From Patescibacteria group bacterium (GTDB lineage: Bacteria > Patescibacteriota > Patescibacteriia > Patescibacteriales > UBA12465), in assembly GCA_050949525.1 (NCBI GenBank), contig JBMNFW010000001.1, positions 529-64,528 of the forward strand: a stretch of 64,000 nt of DNA, in the 5' to 3' direction. Both the position numbers and the translations under genes were made by a program. The notes below the pieces were generated by a model. It was not told the DNA's origin, made no database searches, and was given only the letters and a program-made list of their open reading frames with translations. Of this stretch, positions 2,554 through 40,954 are shown in pieces (the stretch's first letter is position 1; each line of letters begins with the position of its first letter).

Positions 2554-3639
2554 TGAATAAGTTCAGATACATTTTGGAAAATAAAAAGCCCAAAATGTAT
2601 GCAGATAAAGTTTAAGTACTATAATTGTCCCGGATTTGGTACATTATATAATGATGCAATTAAGCAAAAATATATGATTACCAAAGAAGCTAGACAAAGA
2701 CTCAAAATATTAGAATTTTGGAAGCAATATGGCCTTCAAGCCACTACTGATGCCTTTGGGGTTAAAAAATCTACCCTATACAATTGGCAAAAAATATTTA
2801 GAGAAGGGGGTGGCAAGATAGAAGCTCTCAATCCTAAATCCCAAGCTAGGATTAACAAGAATAAAAGAGAAATACATCCTCTGATATTAAAAGAGATTAG
2901 ACGTTTAAGACTAGAGATTTGTCCTAATATGGGTAAAACTAAAGTTAAAAAATTTTTAGATAAATTTTGTGAAATTAATAATTTACCAATATACTCAGAA
3001 TCAAAGATAGGTAGAATTATTAAAGATAAAGATATATATCATCATAGACAGAAAATATCTCATTTTGGTAAGATTAAAAAAATTAAAAAAACTAAAAAGA
3101 AAAGAAAACCTAAGGAATTACAAGTAAATAATCCTGGGGATTTAATAGAGATAGATACTGTTGTTAGATTTCACAATGGATTAAAGAGATATATTATTAC
3201 CGCTGTTGATACTTTTAGCCGAACAGCTTTCGCTTATGCCTATAACAGAATTAGTAGCTCTAATGCTAAAGATTTTTTTAAAAAATTAGAAGAAGTCATG
3301 CCCTTTAATATTAAGGCTGTTCAGACTGATAATGGTTTAGAATTCCATCTCTATTTTAAAAAATACTTAGAAGAGAGAAAAATTGAGCATTATTTCAATT
3401 ATCCAGGTAGACCATACAAACAGGGTCATATTGAGAAGTTTAATAGGACTATTCAAGAAGAATTCATTGATTGGAGTGGTGAAAAATACTTTGATAATTT
3501 AGATGATTTTAATAATTTGTTAATTGATTGGCTTCTTTGGTATAATACCGATAGACCACATTGGAGCCTTGAATTAGTATCTCCGATGAATTATTTGGTT
3601 AATAATAATTTTTTTTCCAAAATGACGTGGACTAATACA
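2554..3639 (+). mobile_element. IS element copy 1 (IS481/IS3-like DDE element), 1086 bp, TG..CA termini, 5-bp TSD AAGTC
   Basis: Boundaries set by where it stops matching the inverted copy at 15653-16739. Imperfect terminal IRs TGAATAAGTTCAG..CATTTTGGAAAA / TGTATTAGTCCACGTCATTTTGGAAAA. AAGTC at 2549-2553 and 3640-3644. Confidence 0.85.
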
Positions 3640-29168: not shown

Positions 29169-29197
29169 TTGACAAAATGAAAAAAAAGTGTTATAAT
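29169..29197 (+). promoter_or_regulatory. Consensus extended -10 promoter
   Basis: TTGACA (29169-29174), 17-nt spacer, TGtTATAAT (29189-29197). Confidence 0.5.
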
Positions 29198-29241
29198 TAT
29201 AATTGTTAAACTTATACAAATTAATAATTTACATTAAAACT

Positions 29242-30117
29242 ATGTTTAATTCTAAAAAACCAACCATCGGAGACTTCGCTAAAGATCAAAATTTCTCAAT
29301 CGAAGATGGAAAATTAAAAAAAGTTGAGCCTTTAACCCCAGAAGAAATTGATAAAAAAGCTGAAGAAGATTTAGAAAAAATGAAAAAAGATCCTAATTAT
29401 GATCCTAGTACTGGAAAAAGCTACTTTGGCGAGGATCAATATCATGATTTTGGAAATAAGGGACGATTTGAAGACGGAGAACCATATGAAATTGGGGATG
29501 ATGAAGAATATAGAATTGAACAAATTGAAGTTGATATAGAAAGCTATGCCAACGAAGATAGTCTTTATCAACATTTTAAAAGAGAAATGGATAATAAGGA
29601 AGATAATGACATAGATTATGATGACGCAATGGGAAAACTAGAAGAAAAAATTATTCGATTTAAAACCGAAAGAAAACAACTTCTAGAATCAACCCCAAAA
29701 TACACTGACTTTGAAAAAGAATCCCTTAAAGCTGTGGTAGCTAAACACCTAAGAGGAAGAGAACAAAAAATTGGAGAAAAACAATTATCAAAAAAACAAG
29801 TAGAGGAAGCTTTAGAAGAGTTTAAACAAAACTTTCCTGCCGACTTCACAAAAATGATTCATAATAAAGTAATTGATAATGATTTAAAATGGAAAAAGGA
29901 AACCTTTGACGGAAAAAAATTATTAGTTAGTTATTATCCTAGTATAGAAGAGCCAATTATAAAATACATTATGAATGATGAACCTAGAAGCAAAGATTCA
30001 ACTAATAAATTGTTTGTAAACACTTCAATGAAAAAAAATGGAAATAATTATAGAAATAAAGATGGAAGTTTCCTAGTATTCTGTTCTCAAATTAAAAGAA
30101 AAAAGAAAAGAAATTAA
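29242..30117 (+). CDS. Hypothetical acidic protein with basic C-terminal tail
   Basis: Start at MFNSKKPTIGDF downstream of the promoter; D/E-rich, ends KRKKKRN; no recognisable motif. Confidence 0.55.
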   Translation: MFNSKKPTIGDFAKDQNFSIEDGKLKKVEPLTPEEIDKKAEEDLEKMKKDPNYDPSTGKSYFGEDQYHDFGNKGRFEDGEPYEIGDDEEYRIEQIEVDIESYANEDSLYQHFKREMDNKEDNDIDYDDAMGKLEEKIIRFKTERKQLLESTPKYTDFEKESLKAVVAKHLRGREQKIGEKQLSKKQVEEALEEFKQNFPADFTKMIHNKVIDNDLKWKKETFDGKKLLVSYYPSIEEPIIKYIMNDEPRSKDSTNKLFVNTSMKKNGNNYRNKDGSFLVFCSQIKRKKKRN

Positions 30118-30132
30118 AATAACAATTAAATT

Positions 30133-30168
30133 AAAAAAGAACATCGATTAAAAGATGTTCTTTTTTTA
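30133..30168. terminator. Bidirectional terminator
   Basis: A-run GAACATC-gattaaaa-GATGTTC T-run between convergent genes. Confidence 0.55.
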
Positions 30169-33050: not shown

Positions 33051-33081
33051 ATAATTAATAACTAATTATTATTTAAAAAAT

Positions 33082-33221
33082 AAAAAAAGACAGTCAAGGT
33101 GTTGAACCACAACAGTTCATCCCGAAGGAATCCCTAGTTATAGAACTTGACTGCCTATTCCAACCTACAACTAGGTAAAAATAGGACGGATTTCCTTCAG
33201 AATATTCTGTTGTGATTCAAC
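33082..33221 (-). promoter_or_regulatory. Structured pseudoknot-type 5' leader (RNA1) of the DUF4236/TPR operon
   Basis: Helices b 33207-33221/33101-33115, c 33188-33198/33124-33133, d 33169-33175/33133-33139. Loop segment 33146-33155 pairs with 33089-33098, then U7 (33082-33088). Both non-WC pairs are G.U only on the - strand. Confidence 0.5.
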
Positions 33222-33227
33222 ATAAAT

Positions 33228-38155: not shown

Positions 38156-38788
38156 ATGAATAAAGAAAATAATAAGCTAATAAAAAGCAAAGAACAAAAG
38201 CTAGAAGAGTGGAAAAAAAAGATGGAAAATGATAGCACGGCTATTAATGAAGGCAAGGATTTTTTAATGTCCTGCTGTAAAACACAATACGATATTGATG
38301 AAAGGCTTAAGAAAGTTTCCAGAGATATCCAATCAAAAATACAAATAAAAAAAGAGGATTTAAACGAAGATGAAATAAATATTTTAAAAGACTCTCTTTA
38401 TGGCATTGGAATAGATAGCGGATATCATTTAATAGAAATAACTCCCGACAATCTACAAATGTTAGTAAATAATCTAAGAAGTAGCTTAATAAAAGAATTT
38501 AATTGCACGACTTATACTGAAAAAATATTAATTGATACTATTATAAATTCTTATATTAGAAATCTTAATTACAGTAAAAAACTATTAAATACAACTGAAT
38601 TAGGGAAAACTAGCCCTGAAATAAATGGGTATATAAAAGAAATGAGCAAAGAAATAGACAGAGCTAATCGTCATTTCTTAAACTCTTTACAGACCTTAAA
38701 AGAACTTAAACAACCAGATTTAAAAGTTAATATTAAAGCAAACACCGCCTTCTTTGGAGAGAAACAAGAGTTTAATAATAAGAAATAA
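38156..38788 (+). CDS. Hypothetical protein
   Basis: 210-aa ORF, coiled-coil-like N-terminus, no motif. Confidence 0.5.
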   Translation: MNKENNKLIKSKEQKLEEWKKKMENDSTAINEGKDFLMSCCKTQYDIDERLKKVSRDIQSKIQIKKEDLNEDEINILKDSLYGIGIDSGYHLIEITPDNLQMLVNNLRSSLIKEFNCTTYTEKILIDTIINSYIRNLNYSKKLLNTTELGKTSPEINGYIKEMSKEIDRANRHFLNSLQTLKELKQPDLKVNIKANTAFFGEKQEFNNKK

Positions 38789-38792
38789 TAAT

Positions 38793-39128
38793 ATGAAATC
38801 ATTAAGCCCTAATAATTTAGGAAAGAAATTAACCTCTTCCTGCAAACAGATAAATATATCTGATTACTTAAAATTAGCCAAGAATGAAATCAAAAAAGTT
38901 TTCTTGTATTCAAAGATGGAAATTGAAGGATATGGCGATGTTGAGCTGATAACAGCTAAAACTGGTATTTCTGGAAATAGATACTGGTTTAAATGCCCTA
39001 TTTGCAGTAAAAGAGCTGGCATTATCTATAAACATCCAGTAAATAACCTTATAGGTTGTCGTAAATGCTTAAACCTAGAATACAAAAGCAGAAGATTTAA
39101 AGGAATGCTTGAAAATTTGGAAAAATAG
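38793..39128 (+). CDS. Small zinc-ribbon protein
   Basis: Start at MKSLSPNN; CPICSKR..(22)..CRKC four-Cys ribbon. Confidence 0.5.
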   Translation: MKSLSPNNLGKKLTSSCKQINISDYLKLAKNEIKKVFLYSKMEIEGYGDVELITAKTGISGNRYWFKCPICSKRAGIIYKHPVNNLIGCRKCLNLEYKSRRFKGMLENLEK

Positions 39129-39145
39129 CATTTTTATGCTATAAT
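39117..39145 (+). promoter_or_regulatory. Extended -10 promoter of the recombinase leader
   Basis: TTGGAA (39117-39122), 17-nt spacer, TGCTATAAT (39137-39145); predicted TSS about 39152. Confidence 0.45.
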
Positions 39146-39151
39146 ATAAGT

Positions 39152-39273
39152 GCTTACTCAATACAAATTAATATGCAAGGGTTTTATATTTTTATCGCCT
39201 GAAAGGGGCGGTTCTGCCGATAAAACTCACCTTTGCGTAAGTTTGTATTGGGTAAGCCAGAACCGTCCCTTTT
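39152..39273 (+). promoter_or_regulatory. Structured pseudoknot-type 5' leader (RNA2) of the serine recombinase gene
   Basis: Helices A 39152-39167/39242-39257, D 39172-39181/39230-39239, C 39190-39197/39218-39225. Loop 39205-39216 pairs with 39258-39269, then UUUU. All G.U pairs are + strand specific. Confidence 0.5.
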
Positions 39274-39294
39274 AGTTAAATTAATATTAAAAAT

Positions 39295-40890
39295 ATGAAT
39301 CAAAATGAAAAAACAATTAAATATTTTCTCTATGCCAGAAAATCTTCTGAAAGTGAAGACAGGCAAACACAATCAATTGATGACCAAATTAATCATTTAA
39401 AAAGCTTAGCTATAGACTTAGGGCTGGATATAGTTAAAGTTTTTACTGAATCTAAATCAGCTAAACAACCAAACAATAGACCCGTCTTTGAAGAAATGAT
39501 AAATAAAATAGAAAAGGGGGAGGGAGACGGAATTCTTTGTTGGCAGATTAATCGCTTATCAAGAAATCCTGTAGACTCTGGGAGGATAAACTGGCTACTA
39601 CAACAAGGGATAATAAAGTCTATCCAGACTATTGATAAAAAATATTTACCAGAAGATAATGTTTTGATGTTTAATGTAGAAAGTGGGATGGCTAATCAAT
39701 TTATTTTGGAATTAAGAAAAAACACTAAAAGAGGTTTGTTGAGTAAGGCAGAAAAAGGATGGCTACCATCTAGAGCTCCCCAAGGGTATCTAAATGATGT
39801 TATTGAAAAAATAATTATTAAAGACCCAAAAAGATTTGATTTAGTTAGAAAGATGTGGGACTTAATGTTAACAGGAAATTATAGCCCTCCAGCTATATTA
39901 GATATAGCTAATAATGATTGGGGTTATTTAACAGAAATGAGAAAAAGAGACGGGGGGAGACCTCTTTCATTAAGTGAGCTTTATAGAATATTTAATAGCT
40001 CCTTTTATTATGGGTATTTTGATTATAAAGGAGTTTTATATGAAGGAAAACACGAAGCAATGATAACACTTGATGAATTTGAAAGAGTTCAGGAGTTATT
40101 AGGAAATAAAAGTAAGGCTAAAAAAAGAAAAAATGAATTTGCCTTTACTGGAATTATTAAATGTGCTTATTGCGGTTGCTCAATAACTGCTGATAAAAAA
40201 ACTAAGCTTATTAAATCTACAGGAGAAAGAAATAGCTACACCTATTATCGTTGCACCAGAAGAAAGAGAGATTTAAAGTGTAAAGAGCCAAGCATAACAT
40301 CAGGGGAAATTGAAAAACAGATAATTAAAGAAATAGAAAAATATACTATTTCAGAAAAATTTAAAGACTGGGCTTTAAGTGTTTTAAAAGAAAAAAGTGA
40401 AAAAGAAGCTGAGGTTAATAATCAATCTTATATCTTGCTAAATAATAAATATTTAGAGCTACAAAAACAATTAAATAATTTATTACAAATGAGACTAAGA
40501 GAATTAATCAGTGATGATGAATTTCTGAGAGAAAAAAGCAAACTACAAGAAGAAATAAACAAAACTAAGATAAAAATATCACAAAATCAAGACAAAAGCC
40601 AAAATTGGATAGAATTAGTTGAAAGAGCCTTCTGTTTTGCAACTTATGCCAGAGATAGCTTTATTAATGGAGATTTAAAGACAAAAAAAGAGATATTTTC
40701 AGCTTTAGGGCAATCATACACCTTAAAAGACGGCAAAATAGAGATAAAACCAGTTAATTGGATAATTCCTATTTCTAACCTAGAAAAAAATAGCAAAATT
40801 GAAAACAAACGGTTAGAACCAACGAAAATTGGCTTAAATAAAGCAAAAAACGAAGCTAATTGCCTCGTTTCTGCTCAATGGGGTGACTAG
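39295..40890 (+). CDS. Large serine recombinase (integrase type)
   Basis: Resolvase-type N-terminus YARKSSESEDRQTQSIDDQ...NRLSRN, recombinase domain, Zn ribbon CAYCGC...YYRCTRRKRDLKC, coiled-coil C-terminus. Last 12 nt overlap tRNA-His. Confidence 0.85.
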   Translation: MNQNEKTIKYFLYARKSSESEDRQTQSIDDQINHLKSLAIDLGLDIVKVFTESKSAKQPNNRPVFEEMINKIEKGEGDGILCWQINRLSRNPVDSGRINWLLQQGIIKSIQTIDKKYLPEDNVLMFNVESGMANQFILELRKNTKRGLLSKAEKGWLPSRAPQGYLNDVIEKIIIKDPKRFDLVRKMWDLMLTGNYSPPAILDIANNDWGYLTEMRKRDGGRPLSLSELYRIFNSSFYYGYFDYKGVLYEGKHEAMITLDEFERVQELLGNKSKAKKRKNEFAFTGIIKCAYCGCSITADKKTKLIKSTGERNSYTYYRCTRRKRDLKCKEPSITSGEIEKQIIKEIEKYTISEKFKDWALSVLKEKSEKEAEVNNQSYILLNNKYLELQKQLNNLLQMRLRELISDDEFLREKSKLQEEINKTKIKISQNQDKSQNWIELVERAFCFATYARDSFINGDLKTKKEIFSALGQSYTLKDGKIEIKPVNWIIPISNLEKNSKIENKRLEPTKIGLNKAKNEANCLVSAQWGD

Positions 40891-40954
40891 AGGGAATCGA
40901 ACCCTCCCCGCCGGGACCACAACCCGGAGTTCTAGCCGCTAAACTATAGTCACC
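40879..40954 (-). tRNA. tRNA-His (anticodon GTG) with G-1 and encoded CCA
   Basis: G-1 + GTGACTA/TAGTCAC acceptor, C73, anticodon arm CCGGG-TTGTGGT-CCCGG, T arm GAGGG-TTCGATT-CCCTC, 3' CCA encoded. Confidence 0.85.

What the first reader, a model, noticed from the sequence alone, without database searches (positions are those of the whole stretch)
39117..39294. Pseudoknot-type 5' leader directly upstream of the large serine recombinase gene
TGCTATAAT (39137-39145), with TTGGAA 17 nt upstream, puts the TSS at about 39152, which is exactly the first paired base. Three helices stack into one interrupted hairpin of about 34 bp: A 39152-39167/39242-39257 (16 bp), D 39172-39181/39230-39239 (10 bp) and C 39190-39197/39218-39225 (8 bp). 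Its 20-nt apical loop contains GGGGCGGUUCUG (39205-39216). This is complementary (12 bp) to 39258-39269, which starts 1 nt after helix A. UUUU follows, and the recombinase ATG (39295) lies 25 nt further on. All four non-Watson-Crick positions are G.U on the + strand and would be A.C on the - strand. The signal is therefore strand-specific RNA, not a DNA palindrome. Known analogues, offered as inference only: loop-to-RBS-proximal pseudoknots gating rep translation in IncB/IncI-alpha plasmids, and loop/target pairing in phage P4 CI RNA immunity. I know of no described leader class for serine integrases.
Basis: partly seen in the sequence, partly recalled or inferred. Interest (0 to 1): 0.72.

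Follow-up and report, generated by a model that had tools for sequence, protein, structure and literature searches.

The report
Conserved pseudoknotted leader RNA of serine integrases
The hairpin and loop-to-tail pairing are real and belong to an apparently undescribed, widely conserved pseudoknotted RNA that has its own promoter directly upstream of serine-integrase genes in mobile elements of tiny (Patescibacteria/CPR) bacteria, where it most likely throttles integrase production.

Summary
The + strand folds at -49.4 kcal/mol (z -6.6).

It is not a one-off. The same motif lies directly upstream of the homologous large serine recombinase (LSR) gene in 51 of 80 GTDB loci and in 65 metagenome contigs. 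All helices covary, including the pseudoknot, which was not in the search model. A -10 box ends exactly 6 nt before the first paired base in 48 of 52 members. G.U outnumbers A.C about 3:1, so it is + strand RNA.

No Rfam 15 family matches, and no paper was found. A second, divergent copy is at 33081-33223 (- strand).

The elements integrate into tRNA genes. The LSR stop codon lies inside an opposite-strand tRNA gene in 61 of 75 loci.

Best reading (inferred): a self-contained cis-acting leader. Its GC-rich long-range helix plus U-run, ending 2-30 nt before the ATG, terminates transcription and/or occludes the start site, keeping integrase expression low. A guide-RNA role found no support.

This is a new RNA family of a known general kind. 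Function is untested.

The parts
39117..39145 (+). Promoter: -35-like TTGGAA (39117-39122), 17-nt spacer, extended -10 TGCTATAAT (39137-39145)
   Evidence: The promoter scan scores it 10/12 with TG. In 48 of 52 family members a -10 hexamer (31 perfect TATAAT, the rest mostly 5/6) ends exactly 6 nt before the first paired base of P1. 23 of the 52 have the TG extension.
39152..39169 (+). P1, 5' strand (pairs with 39240-39257). The predicted transcript starts at or next to its first base. The outer 8-9 bp are conserved in sequence (G-yU-nAC-CC / GG-GUn-Ar-C).
   Evidence: Fold. 13 of 13 modelled P1 pairs show double changes and 96% of cells are paired. Replicated in metagenome sequences. Consensus.
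39172..39181 (+). P2, 5' strand (pairs with 39230-39239); two G.U pairs
   Evidence: 10 of 10 pairs covary.
39182..39189 (+). U-rich 5' side of the P2/P3 internal loop (UUUUAUAU; family consensus tTTt...)
   Evidence: Conserved unpaired U-run in the family consensus. Its role is unknown.
39190..39197 (+). P3, 5' strand (pairs with 39218-39225)
   Evidence: 8 of 8 pairs covary and 91-94% of cells are paired. The single-sequence MFE prefers a local alternative.
39198..39217 (+). 20-nt apical loop CCUGAAAGGGGCGGUUCUGC. Positions 39205-39216 (extendable to 39199-39216) form the 5' strand of the pseudoknot/terminator helix.
   Evidence: Sequence. Family consensus CCynnaanGGGcggnTcTgCc. Pseudoknot covariation.
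39218..39257 (+). 3' strands of P3 (39218-39225), P2 (39230-39239) and P1 (39240-39257)
39258..39275 (+). Tail CAGAACCGUCCCUUUUAG, the 3' strand of the pseudoknot helix. The core is 39258-39269 and the A-U/G.U extension runs to 39275. The U-run is 39270-39273. The tail starts with no linker after P1.
   Evidence: Loop-tail duplex is -30.5 kcal/mol here; the family mean is -26.7 with 14-18 bp. 12 of the 15 pairs in the main pseudoknot run covary, and one G.U is conserved in 48 of 52. The 10 nt after the CC core hold 5.3 T on average.
39295..40890 (+). Large serine recombinase gene (531 aa), the gene served by the leader
   Evidence: Pfam Resolvase + Recombinase + Zn_ribbon_recom. More than 3000 homologues at 50-88% identity. 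The start codon lies 2-30 nt after the tail in most loci.
40876..40953 (-). tRNA-His gene with its encoded CCA. The recombinase ORF ends 12 nt inside it, which marks the right-hand junction of the integrated element.
   Evidence: The same arrangement occurs in 61 of 75 usable loci. TGG (reverse complement of CCA) gives the nearly invariant Trp529.
38754..39128 (+). Zn-ribbon ORF (124 aa, CxxC...CxxC) directly upstream of the promoter; part of the conserved module ORF / RNA / recombinase / tRNA
   Evidence: tblastn finds a homologue upstream on the same strand in 36 sequences, counting the window itself. No Pfam or PHROG family.
33081..33223 (-). Second, divergent copy of the motif on the minus strand. 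P1 33221-33207/33115-33101. P2 33200-33188/33134-33122. Enlarged apical domain. Pseudoknot GGCAGUCAAG 33155-33146 with CUUGACUGUC 33098-33089 (G.U at the same relative position). U7 at 33088-33082. TGgTAAAGT -10 at 33236-33228. It leads into the DUF4236-TPR gene 33050-32124.
   Evidence: Covariance model R2 scores it 29.3 bits, E 2.6e-5. Fold -58.8 kcal/mol, z -6.7. Sequence read.

Best explanation
The region encodes an RNA of about 120 nt that forms the 5' leader of the integrase mRNA. The integrase belongs to a mobile element that integrates into tRNA genes of Patescibacteria.

Transcription starts from an extended -10 promoter at the first base of a three-part hairpin of about 34 bp (P1-P2-P3). 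Immediately after P1 closes, the next 12-18 nt pair with the apical loop. This long-range helix is GC-rich (mean -27 kcal/mol) and can stack on P1. It is followed by a U-run and ends only 2-30 nt before the start codon.

Most likely this pseudoknot helix works as a built-in intrinsic terminator and/or as a block on ribosome access. Integrase synthesis would then be held at a low default level, and only read-through or unfolded transcripts would be translated. Whether the lock is constitutive or is opened by a signal is not known.

Shown:
- the structure, the pseudoknot and its covariation;
- the fixed promoter position;
- the strand specificity;
- the near-exclusive linkage to serine-recombinase genes.

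Inferred:
- that the RNA is made;
- that it terminates transcription or blocks initiation;
- the direction of the effect on expression.
For: Structure and conservation
- Stability: z -6.6.
- The motif lies on the + strand directly upstream of the recombinase in 51 of 80 GTDB loci (56-106 bits).
- It was also found in 65 metagenome contigs. Of these, 59 carry the same recombinase clade directly downstream, 2 carry a different serine-recombinase clade, and 4 have no downstream sequence to judge.
- Covariation in the GTDB set: 90.6% of cells paired versus 67.5% in shuffles, and 38-49% when the partner columns are slid. 50 of 54 pairs have double changes.
- Replicate on 58 distinct metagenome sequences: 89.6% versus 57.6%.
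- The pseudoknot helix, absent from the model, is 93% paired, and 12 of its 15 main-run pairs covary.

Evidence for a + strand RNA
- The -10 box ends exactly 6 nt before P1 in 48 of 52 members.
- G.U/U.G versus A.C/C.A: 108 versus 37 in the nested helices and 87 versus 12 in the pseudoknot.

Evidence for the lock
- The loop-tail duplex is 14-18 bp at -18 to -34 kcal/mol and is followed by a T-rich stretch. One subfamily reads CCGTCCCTTTCGGG+TTTTT, and the divergent copies have U5-U7.
- Hairpin-plus-U terminators are enriched in this genome: 16 found versus 7.3 +/- 2.1 in shuffles.
- The ATG follows the tail by a median of about 12 nt, and by only about 8 nt after the CCC in some loci.
- The motif keeps its place when another gene is inserted before the recombinase (L021/L034). 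A paralogous copy leads a different operon in the window. Both fit a self-contained cis element.
Against: - There are no transcript data. The start site, the 3' end and the termination are all inferred.
- The U-run directly after the GC core is short (UUU, then purines) in many members. It can itself pair with loop A's, which is unusual for an intrinsic terminator.
- The base of P1 and the pseudoknot are conserved in sequence, not only in pairing. The fold is more elaborate than a plain terminator needs, which hints at recognition by a factor or a tertiary fold.
- A near-consensus promoter that fires straight into a terminator looks wasteful, unless the short RNA itself has a function.
- 29 of 80 loci lack the canonical full-length motif (two of these carry a variant copy, one a truncated one). 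Some relatives keep only the promoter, P1 and a decaying tail (L003, L094). The element is therefore dispensable.
- The sign of the effect is open. In IncB/IncI-alpha plasmids a similar pseudoknot activates translation.
Confidence: 0.55

Rival explanations
1. A signal-responsive switch rather than a fixed lock. The compact pseudoknotted fold would bind a small ligand, a protein or another RNA. Candidate proteins are the Zn-ribbon protein encoded just upstream, or the recombinase itself. Binding would open or close the loop-tail helix and so time integrase expression to the state of the host or the element.
For: - Sequence, not just pairing, is conserved in the P1 base, the U-rich junction, the loop and the tail, including an almost invariant G.U.
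- A small competing hairpin (CCC-N3-5-GGG) inside the loop could act as an alternative state.
- The Zn-ribbon ORF is a conserved neighbour.
Against: - The junctions J1/2 and J3/2 are not conserved, so there is no obvious ligand pocket.
- The competing hairpin is far weaker than the 14-18 bp loop-tail helix.
- The motif also serves a second, unrelated recombinase clade. This argues against recognition by the recombinase protein.
- No alternative pairing with covariation was found.
Confidence: 0.17
2. A stand-alone small RNA. The promoter and terminator would make a discrete RNA of about 120 nt whose main job is in trans. It could act as an immunity or copy-control RNA, or as a partner of the recombinase. 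Integrase control would then be secondary.
For: - The promoter is near consensus and the helix-plus-U-run is terminator-like, which defines a short transcription unit.
- A structured RNA just upstream of a recombinase gene is how IS110 bridge RNAs are arranged (established knowledge; papers listed).
- Linkage to serine recombinases spans two clades.
Against: - The one obvious interaction surface, the apical loop, is already occupied by the RNA's own tail.
- Very few variable nucleotides are unpaired.
- There is no excess complementarity to the cognate recombinase-3'-end/tRNA junction. The longest common substring is 7.2 nt for cognate pairs versus 6.85 nt for non-cognate pairs, and the matches fall at random positions.
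- RNAs of elements that target the same tRNA share no specific variable segment.
- The two copies in the window have unrelated pseudoknot sequences.
Confidence: 0.13
3. An RNA processing element. The 28-bp P1-P2 duplex would be an RNase III site, or the fold would be a self-cleaving ribozyme. Either would cut the leader from the integrase mRNA and so set its stability.
For: - The duplex is long and nearly perfect.
- The G.U is conserved and the pseudoknotted core is compact.
- Retroregulation of lambda int by RNase III at sib is a precedent (established knowledge).
Against: - No known ribozyme family matches.
- There are no conserved unpaired catalytic-core nucleotides.
- This reading does not explain the U-run or the fixed position next to the ATG.
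Confidence: 0.07
4. A DNA-level element. It would be a hairpin extruded from single-stranded DNA, or a long inverted repeat, used as a replication or transfer origin or as a recombinase or regulator binding site.
For: - The element encodes a primase.
- The P1 base is a conserved inverted repeat.
- Strand-specific folded single-stranded DNA sites exist, for example integron attC, as discussed in PMC5737381.
Against: - A -10 box sits at a fixed 6-nt distance from the first paired base in 48 of 52 members.
- The pseudoknot covaries and a U-run follows it.
- G.U is about three times as frequent as A.C.
- The motif is intact inside long chromosomal contigs, so it is not split as an attachment site would be.
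- Primase-bearing relatives can lack it (L086).
- Attachment sites of serine integrases are about 40-50 bp, not a 106-bp hairpin (established knowledge).
Confidence: 0.04

Closest known systems
Loop-to-RBS-proximal pseudoknot controlling repZ/repA translation in IncI-alpha/IncB plasmids (ColIb-P9, pMU720)
   Same: In both, the loop of an upstream hairpin in the leader pairs with a stretch just 5' of the start region of a gene for a DNA-processing protein of a mobile replicon. Both pairings are long-range and lie within about 100 nt.
   Different: In the plasmids the pseudoknot activates translation. It depends on translation of a leader peptide (repY/repB) and is blocked by an antisense Inc RNA. 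Here there is no conserved leader ORF (checked by eye in a few members only), and no antisense promoter was established. The helix is much longer (12-18 bp) and is followed by a U-run. There is no sequence homology.
Intrinsic (Rho-independent) terminators and transcription attenuators in 5' leaders
   Same: A GC-rich helix directly followed by a U-rich tract lies between a promoter and the first codon. This genome uses hairpin-plus-U terminators.
   Different: The 5' arm of the helix sits in the apical loop of a 34-bp hairpin. The terminator is therefore a pseudoknot that encloses the 3' strands of P1-P3, not a simple stem-loop. The U-tract is short or interrupted in many members, and no anti-terminator alternative has been identified.
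Cis-encoded immunity RNAs of satellite phage P4 (CI RNA, seqA/seqB/seqC) and phages P1/P7 (C4 RNA, Rfam RF01695)
   Same: A leader-encoded structured RNA of a mobile element has a loop that pairs with a downstream stretch of the same transcript. This causes premature termination or blocks a start site.
   Different: Those RNAs are processed out by RNase P, act in trans on two target sites, and control lytic or antirepressor genes rather than an integrase. Here there is a single cis partner adjacent to the hairpin. Rfam finds no match to C4 or any other family.
Structured 5' UTRs that restrain transposase synthesis (IS200, IS10/IS50)
   Same: Both involve a recombinase gene of a mobile element with a stable leader structure close to the start codon. 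The logic is to keep expression very low.
   Different: The enzyme class differs (DDE/HUH versus serine recombinase). Those leaders are simple hairpins or rely on antisense RNA-OUT, not a conserved pseudoknot of about 120 nt with its own promoter.
IS110/IS1111 bridge (seek) RNAs
   Same: A structured non-coding RNA with its own promoter is encoded immediately upstream of a site-specific recombinase gene in a mobile element.
   Different: Bridge RNAs carry internal loops complementary to target and donor DNA, and they partner a DEDD/RuvC-like recombinase. Here the enzyme is a canonical large serine recombinase. Almost all variable nucleotides are base-paired, and no target complementarity was found.

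Membership tests
Any Rfam 15 family | Match to a curated covariance model at its gathering score | tested here: not met
   Across the whole window, only tRNAs reach gathering scores. With permissive filters on 38900-39500, only chance-level hits appear (E >= 1.4, far below gathering). In 20 further loci that carry the motif, only tRNAs and one group I intron elsewhere are found.
H-type-like RNA pseudoknot (hairpin loop paired with a 3' single strand) | Loop-to-downstream pairing supported by covariation independent of the nested structure | tested here: met
   Of the 15 pairs in the main pseudoknot run (18 pseudoknot pairs tested in all), 93% of cells pair and 12 pairs show double changes. The pseudoknot was not part of the covariance model that made the alignment. 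RNAalifold on a plain MAFFT alignment finds the same helix.
Intrinsic terminator / attenuator | Stable GC-rich helix immediately followed by a U-rich tract, downstream of a promoter and upstream of the regulated ORF | tested here: met
   The duplex is -18 to -34 kcal/mol. TTT is conserved at >=90% after the CC core, and the next 10 nt hold a mean of 5.3 T. Divergent copies have U5-U7. The simple scan does not call it because the helix is long-range.
Intrinsic terminator / attenuator | Transcripts actually end at the U-tract; a regulated alternative (anti-terminator) exists | not testable with these tools
   No transcript data are available. No covarying alternative pairing was found. The only candidate is a weak CCC/GGG mini-hairpin in the loop.
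IncB/IncI-alpha rep pseudoknot control | Leader peptide whose translation is required for pseudoknot formation | tested here: not met
   The window has a 9-codon ORF (39173-39202). Other members lack it, or have unrelated ORFs starting in the loop only where the loop reads AAAUGGG. Nothing is conserved. This was checked by eye in a few members only.
IncB/IncI-alpha rep pseudoknot control | Antisense RNA complementary to the pairing loop | not tested
   Only informal inspection was done. In some loci the ATTATATG start context reads TATAAT on the minus strand, but no suitable -35 was seen. No systematic test was run.
P4 CI / P1 C4 immunity RNA | Homology to the family; two target sites on the controlled transcript; RNase P processing | tested here: not met
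   Rfam gives no hit, although C4 RF01695 is in the library. Only one partner for the loop exists, directly after P1. Processing is not testable here.
IS110-type bridge RNA | Partner is a DEDD (RuvC-like) + Tnp recombinase | tested here: not met
   The downstream protein has Resolvase, Recombinase and Zn_ribbon_recom domains.
IS110-type bridge RNA | Unpaired loop segments complementary to target and donor DNA | tested here: not met
   Cognate RNA/junction pairs show no more shared or complementary sequence than non-cognate pairs: 7.2 versus 6.85 nt on the same strand and 6.86 versus 6.81 nt for the reverse complement. Matches fall at random positions. The left end of the element was not located, so the donor site was only half tested.
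Riboswitch | Conserved unpaired nucleotides forming a ligand pocket, plus a mutually exclusive expression platform | tested here: inconclusive
   Conserved nucleotides lie mostly within helices (P1 base, pseudoknot) and in a U-run. The junctions are variable. No ligand can be inferred from the gene context, which is an integrase.

The most novel reading that the evidence does not exclude
The RNA of about 120 nt is released as a discrete molecule and acts together with, or directly on, the serine recombinase. It might set integration-versus-excision directionality or assist synapsis. That would make it the first RNA partner of a serine recombinase. The evidence does not exclude this. The RNA has its own strong promoter and a terminator-like end. 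It is linked almost exclusively to serine-recombinase genes of two clades, and its P1 base and pseudoknot are conserved in sequence. Only a guide role towards the right-hand tRNA junction was tested, and that test was negative.
Probability: 0.05. Interest if true: 0.9.

Novelty: new variant of a known kind. Interest (0 to 1): 0.62.

Why it matters
Large serine integrases are major genome-engineering tools, yet little is known about how their natural expression is controlled. No conserved RNA element has been tied to them.

This finding defines an RNA family that is apparently undescribed. The family has a covariation-proven pseudoknot and is confined to integrative elements of Patescibacteria (CPR), a group in which almost nothing is known about gene regulation.

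If it is a pseudoknot-type terminator or translational lock, it is a compact, host-factor-independent way to throttle a recombinase. It is also directly testable with reporters. If it turns out to be signal-responsive or protein-binding, it would reveal how these elements decide when to move.

The companion observation is that these integrase genes end inside the tRNA genes they target, across at least seven tRNA specificities. That gives a ready-made catalogue of natural attachment sites.

Tried and rejected
1. Guide or bridge-RNA idea. I compared each RNA with its own recombinase-3'-end/tRNA junction and with those of other loci. There was no excess identity or complementarity, and matches fell at random positions. 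Rejected for the right junction. The left junction could not be found.

2. tRNA mimicry, or att-site resemblance of the P1 base and tail. Only vague similarity to the tRNA-His 3' end was seen by eye, and it did not track tRNA type. Dropped.

3. Duplicated tRNA-His 3' fragment to mark the left end of the element. None was found with up to 3 mismatches, and direct-repeat search gave only AT-rich noise. The left boundary is unresolved; it may lie near the bidirectional terminator at 30133-30166.

4. Leader peptide. The 9-codon ORF in the window is not conserved in the few members checked.

5. Antisense promoter at the start codon. It was only inspected informally and is not convincing.

6. Second copies in other elements. 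10-kb flanks of six further loci showed none. A weak hit in L089 looks like an ordinary terminator. The second copy seems particular to this window's lineage.

7. MAFFT alignment for structure. It misaligned the variable stems, so RNAalifold saw only the pseudoknot. I solved this by building a covariance model from the window alone and iterating.

8. Phage identity of the element. PHROGs recognises only the primase. An IMG/VR pattern scan gave only 4 true hits, and a first narrower pattern gave none.

9. Literature. Four full-text searches and one paper look-up found no description of this motif.
Full report
**1. The observation**

The sequence at 39117-39294 is exactly as described.

- TTGGAA, a 17-nt spacer, then TGCTATAAT is the only good + strand promoter match in the neighbourhood (10/12, with TG).
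- The + strand RNA from 39152 folds into one long interrupted hairpin at -49.4 kcal/mol. Shuffled controls give -27.2 +/- 3.4 (z -6.6; none of 200 as stable).
- The reverse strand is clearly weaker (-37.7 kcal/mol, z -4.0).
- The loop-tail pairing can be extended to 18 bp (39199-39216 with 39258-39275), at a calculated duplex energy of -30.5 kcal/mol.
- Rfam 15 has no family for it, either at gathering thresholds over the whole window or with permissive filters on 38900-39500.

**2. Context**

- The ORF at 39295-40890 is a large serine recombinase with Resolvase, Recombinase and Zn_ribbon_recom domains.
- Upstream on the same strand lie a 634-aa ORF, a DUF5659 protein, a Toprim primase, and ORFs of 210 and 124 aa.
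- Downstream, the recombinase ORF runs 12 nt into a tRNA-His gene on the opposite strand.
- To the right of the tRNA in a close relative lie ordinary chromosomal genes such as dnaA and dnaN (L081).
- This is therefore an integrated, primase-encoding mobile element with the integrase at its right edge. The left edge was not found.

**3. The motif is a family**

The recombinase has more than 3000 homologues at 50-88% identity, mostly from Patescibacteria. I fetched the 80 best of about 580 matching loci from GTDB species representatives. Simple folding of their upstream regions already showed the same architecture again and again.

I then rebuilt it from 48 hits (R2).

- R2 finds the motif on the + strand, ending a few to about 30 nt before the recombinase ATG, in 51 of 80 loci at 56-106 bits. 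The window scores 127 bits.
- A pattern scan of metagenome contigs was based only on the conserved loop and tail. Of the 80 returned, 65 are true hits at 52-112 bits.

**4. Covariation**

On the 52-sequence alignment:

- 90.6% of pair cells are standard pairs. Column shuffles give 67.5%, and sliding the partner columns gives 38-49%.
- 50 of 54 pairs show changes on both sides.
- No shuffle out of 500 reaches any of the five measures.

The nested helices were fitted by the model, so those counts lean towards the structure. The pseudoknot could not be in the model. Even so, it is 93% paired over its 15-pair main run, and 12 of those pairs covary. Examples are GGGGCGGUUCUG/CAGAACCGUCCC, GGGCGGCUCUG/CAGAGCCGUCC, GGGGCAGCUGUG/CACGGCUGUCCC and GGGGCAAUUCUG/CAGAAUUGUCCCC. 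RNAalifold on an unfitted MAFFT alignment picks the same helix.

An independent replicate on 58 distinct metagenome sequences gives 89.6% versus 57.6%, with 35 of 36 pairs showing double changes.

The family consensus is conserved in sequence at four places:

- the base of P1 (G-yU-nAC-CC / GG-GUn-Ar-C);
- a U-run in the P2/P3 junction;
- the loop (CC...GGGcgg.UcUgCc);
- the tail (cAgAccgUCCyUUU).

One G.U in the pseudoknot is kept in 48 of 52 members.

**5. RNA, and which strand**

- In 48 of 52 members a -10 hexamer ends exactly 6 nt before the first paired base of P1. 31 are perfect TATAAT, the rest mostly 5/6, and 23 of the 52 carry the TG extension. The predicted transcript therefore starts at the foot of the hairpin.
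- G.U/U.G pairs outnumber A.C/C.A mismatches 108 to 37 in the nested helices and 87 to 12 in the pseudoknot. Without the conserved G.U column the pseudoknot count is 39 to 12.
- The model hits only the + strand in the loci.

Together with the pseudoknot and the U-run, this makes a DNA-level palindrome or a single-stranded DNA hairpin unlikely.

**6. What it is attached to**

Of the 65 metagenome instances:

- 59 have the N-terminus of the same recombinase clade directly downstream;
- 4 have no sequence left to judge;
- 2 (L117 and L149) are followed by a different serine-recombinase clade of the YxRVSxxxQ type that tblastn with the window protein does not detect.

In L021 and L034 a variant motif is followed by an inserted 344-aa gene and then the recombinase.

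A homologue of the window's 124-aa Zn-ribbon ORF lies just upstream of the motif in 36 sequences, counting the window. The conserved module is therefore Zn-ribbon ORF / promoter + RNA / recombinase / tRNA.

29 of 80 loci lack the canonical full-length motif; two of these carry the L021/L034 variant and one (L015) a truncated copy. Some close relatives retain only the promoter, P1 and a decaying tail (L003; L094).

**7. The second copy**

R2 also hits window 33081-33223 on the minus strand (29 bits, E 2.6e-5). It folds at -58.8 kcal/mol (z -6.7) and has the same plan:

- a TGgTAAAGT -10 box 6 nt before P1, then P1 and P2;
- an enlarged apical domain;
- a 10-bp loop-tail helix with a G.U at the same relative place;
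- U7, and then the start of a DUF4236-TPR gene that heads a leftward operon.

Flanks of 10 kb at six other loci showed no such second copy.

**8. Mechanism**

The loop-tail helix is long (14-18 bp) and strong (mean -26.7 kcal/mol). It starts with no linker after P1, so it can stack on P1, and a U-rich tract follows it. In one subfamily it reads CCGUCCCUUUCGGG+UUUUU, which is a textbook terminator 3' half.

Hairpin-plus-U terminators are enriched in this genome, with 16 found versus 7.3 +/- 2.1 in shuffles.

The start codon follows closely. The median gap is about 12 nt after the modelled tail, and in several loci the ATG is only about 8 nt after the CCC. These genes have no clear Shine-Dalgarno sequence.

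The best-supported reading is a self-contained cis-acting leader. Once P1 has closed, the tail captures the apical loop, and the resulting pseudoknot helix terminates transcription and/or denies the ribosome access. This would hold integrase output low.

On geometry (my inference), an 18-bp helix cannot coexist with a closed P3 across a 20-nt loop, but a 12-bp core with a 7-nt crossing strand can. P1 (16-18 bp) is about as long as P2 plus P3. A fold-back at the P1/P2 junction would therefore bring the loop to the foot of P1.

What argues for more than a plain terminator:

- the sequence conservation of the P1 base and the pseudoknot;
- the strong promoter that fires into the lock;
- the conserved U-rich junction.

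These features keep three alternatives alive: a factor- or ligand-responsive switch, a trans-acting small RNA, or a processing site.

**9. Tests of the more exotic reading**

I looked for bridge-RNA-like guide segments. Cognate RNA and junction pairs share no more sequence or complementarity than non-cognate pairs (7.2 versus 6.85 nt), and the matches fall at random positions. RNAs from elements in the same tRNA have unrelated stems. Motif presence is also independent of tRNA type. Nearly all variable nucleotides are paired. A guide role is not supported, although the donor or left site could not be tested.

**10. Comparison and novelty**

The closest functional analogues are:

- the IncB/IncI-alpha rep pseudoknot;
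- leader attenuators;
- P4 CI and P1 C4 immunity RNAs;
- transposase 5' UTR structures.

The motif is not a member of any of them (see the membership table). Rfam has no match in the window or in 20 other carriers. Full-text searches found no description. I class it as a new RNA family that is a new variant of a known kind (a cis-regulatory leader). There is a small chance that it is something more.

**11. Verdict**

- Observation: confirmed.
- Function: inferred, not shown.
- Interest: 0.62.

Noticed in passing
window 40876-40953 and 39295-40890; loci L001-L080: The recombinase ORF ends 12-75 nt inside an opposite-strand tRNA gene in 61 of 75 usable loci. The tRNAs are His 33, Asn 11, Gln 7, Trp 6, Ser 2, Asp 1 and Glu 1. 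The reverse complement of the encoded CCA gives the nearly invariant Trp529. Closely related integrases thus target at least seven different tRNA genes.
   Followed up: partly
window 33081-33223 (- strand): A second, divergent copy of the same RNA motif, with its own -10 box, pseudoknot and U7. It leads a leftward operon that starts with a DUF4236-TPR gene. Six other elements examined over 10-kb flanks have no such copy.
   Followed up: partly
window 40846-40872 (- strand): A terminator-like hairpin plus U-run sits just downstream of tRNA-His on the minus strand, embedded antisense in the last codons of the recombinase gene. The element appears to supply the tRNA gene's terminator.
   Followed up: no
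L117 100-226 and L149 384-510: The motif precedes a different serine-recombinase clade (N-terminus ...YIRVSSDEQ / ...YIRVSSEEQ) that tblastn with the window protein does not detect. The leader has therefore been combined with more than one recombinase lineage.
   Followed up: partly
L003 about 2900-3000; L094 9985-10075; L015 2848-2945: These are degenerate versions. L003 and L094 keep the promoter, a short P1 hairpin and a decaying tail (TAGAACCGTCTATATTGAG) but have lost P2, P3 and the loop. L015 keeps only the 3' half, which it shares with L010/L013 from CTCTTGTGTTTGTGGAG onward.
   Followed up: no
window 38754-39128; 35 other loci: A small Zn-ribbon protein (CxxC...CxxC) with no Pfam or PHROG family is encoded just upstream of the motif on the same strand. 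It is a candidate directionality factor or regulator.
   Followed up: partly
L037 4651-4952 (- strand): A group I intron (Rfam RF00028, 51 bits) lies immediately after the recombinase gene, where other loci have a tRNA. It is probably an intron-containing tRNA gene that ARAGORN missed.
   Followed up: no
L086 3746-3990: The divergent intergenic region of a related element holds three copies of ACCTGAACAGT and folds very stably on the minus strand (-99 kcal/mol, z -7.0). It is not the same motif; it may be operators or another RNA.
   Followed up: no
L093 (whole locus): The contig is a mirror image of itself around about 12.9 kb, with two inverted copies of the element including the recombinase. 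It is probably an assembly artefact.
   Followed up: no
window 29169-29197 and 30133-30166: A perfect 12/12 sigma-70 promoter with TG lies in front of the unknown ORF 29203-30117. A 13-bp bidirectional terminator sits between that ORF and the leftward operon. This may be the left limit of the element.
   Followed up: no
window 39173-39202: A 9-codon ORF (MQGFYIFIA*) lies inside the leader. It is absent from the other family members checked, so it is probably meaningless.
   Followed up: partly
L084 11721-15852: Next to the tRNA cluster of this chromosome lie a tyrosine integrase and a diversity-generating retroelement pair (bAvd + RVT_1). The tRNA locus is an integration hotspot for several elements.
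   Followed up: no
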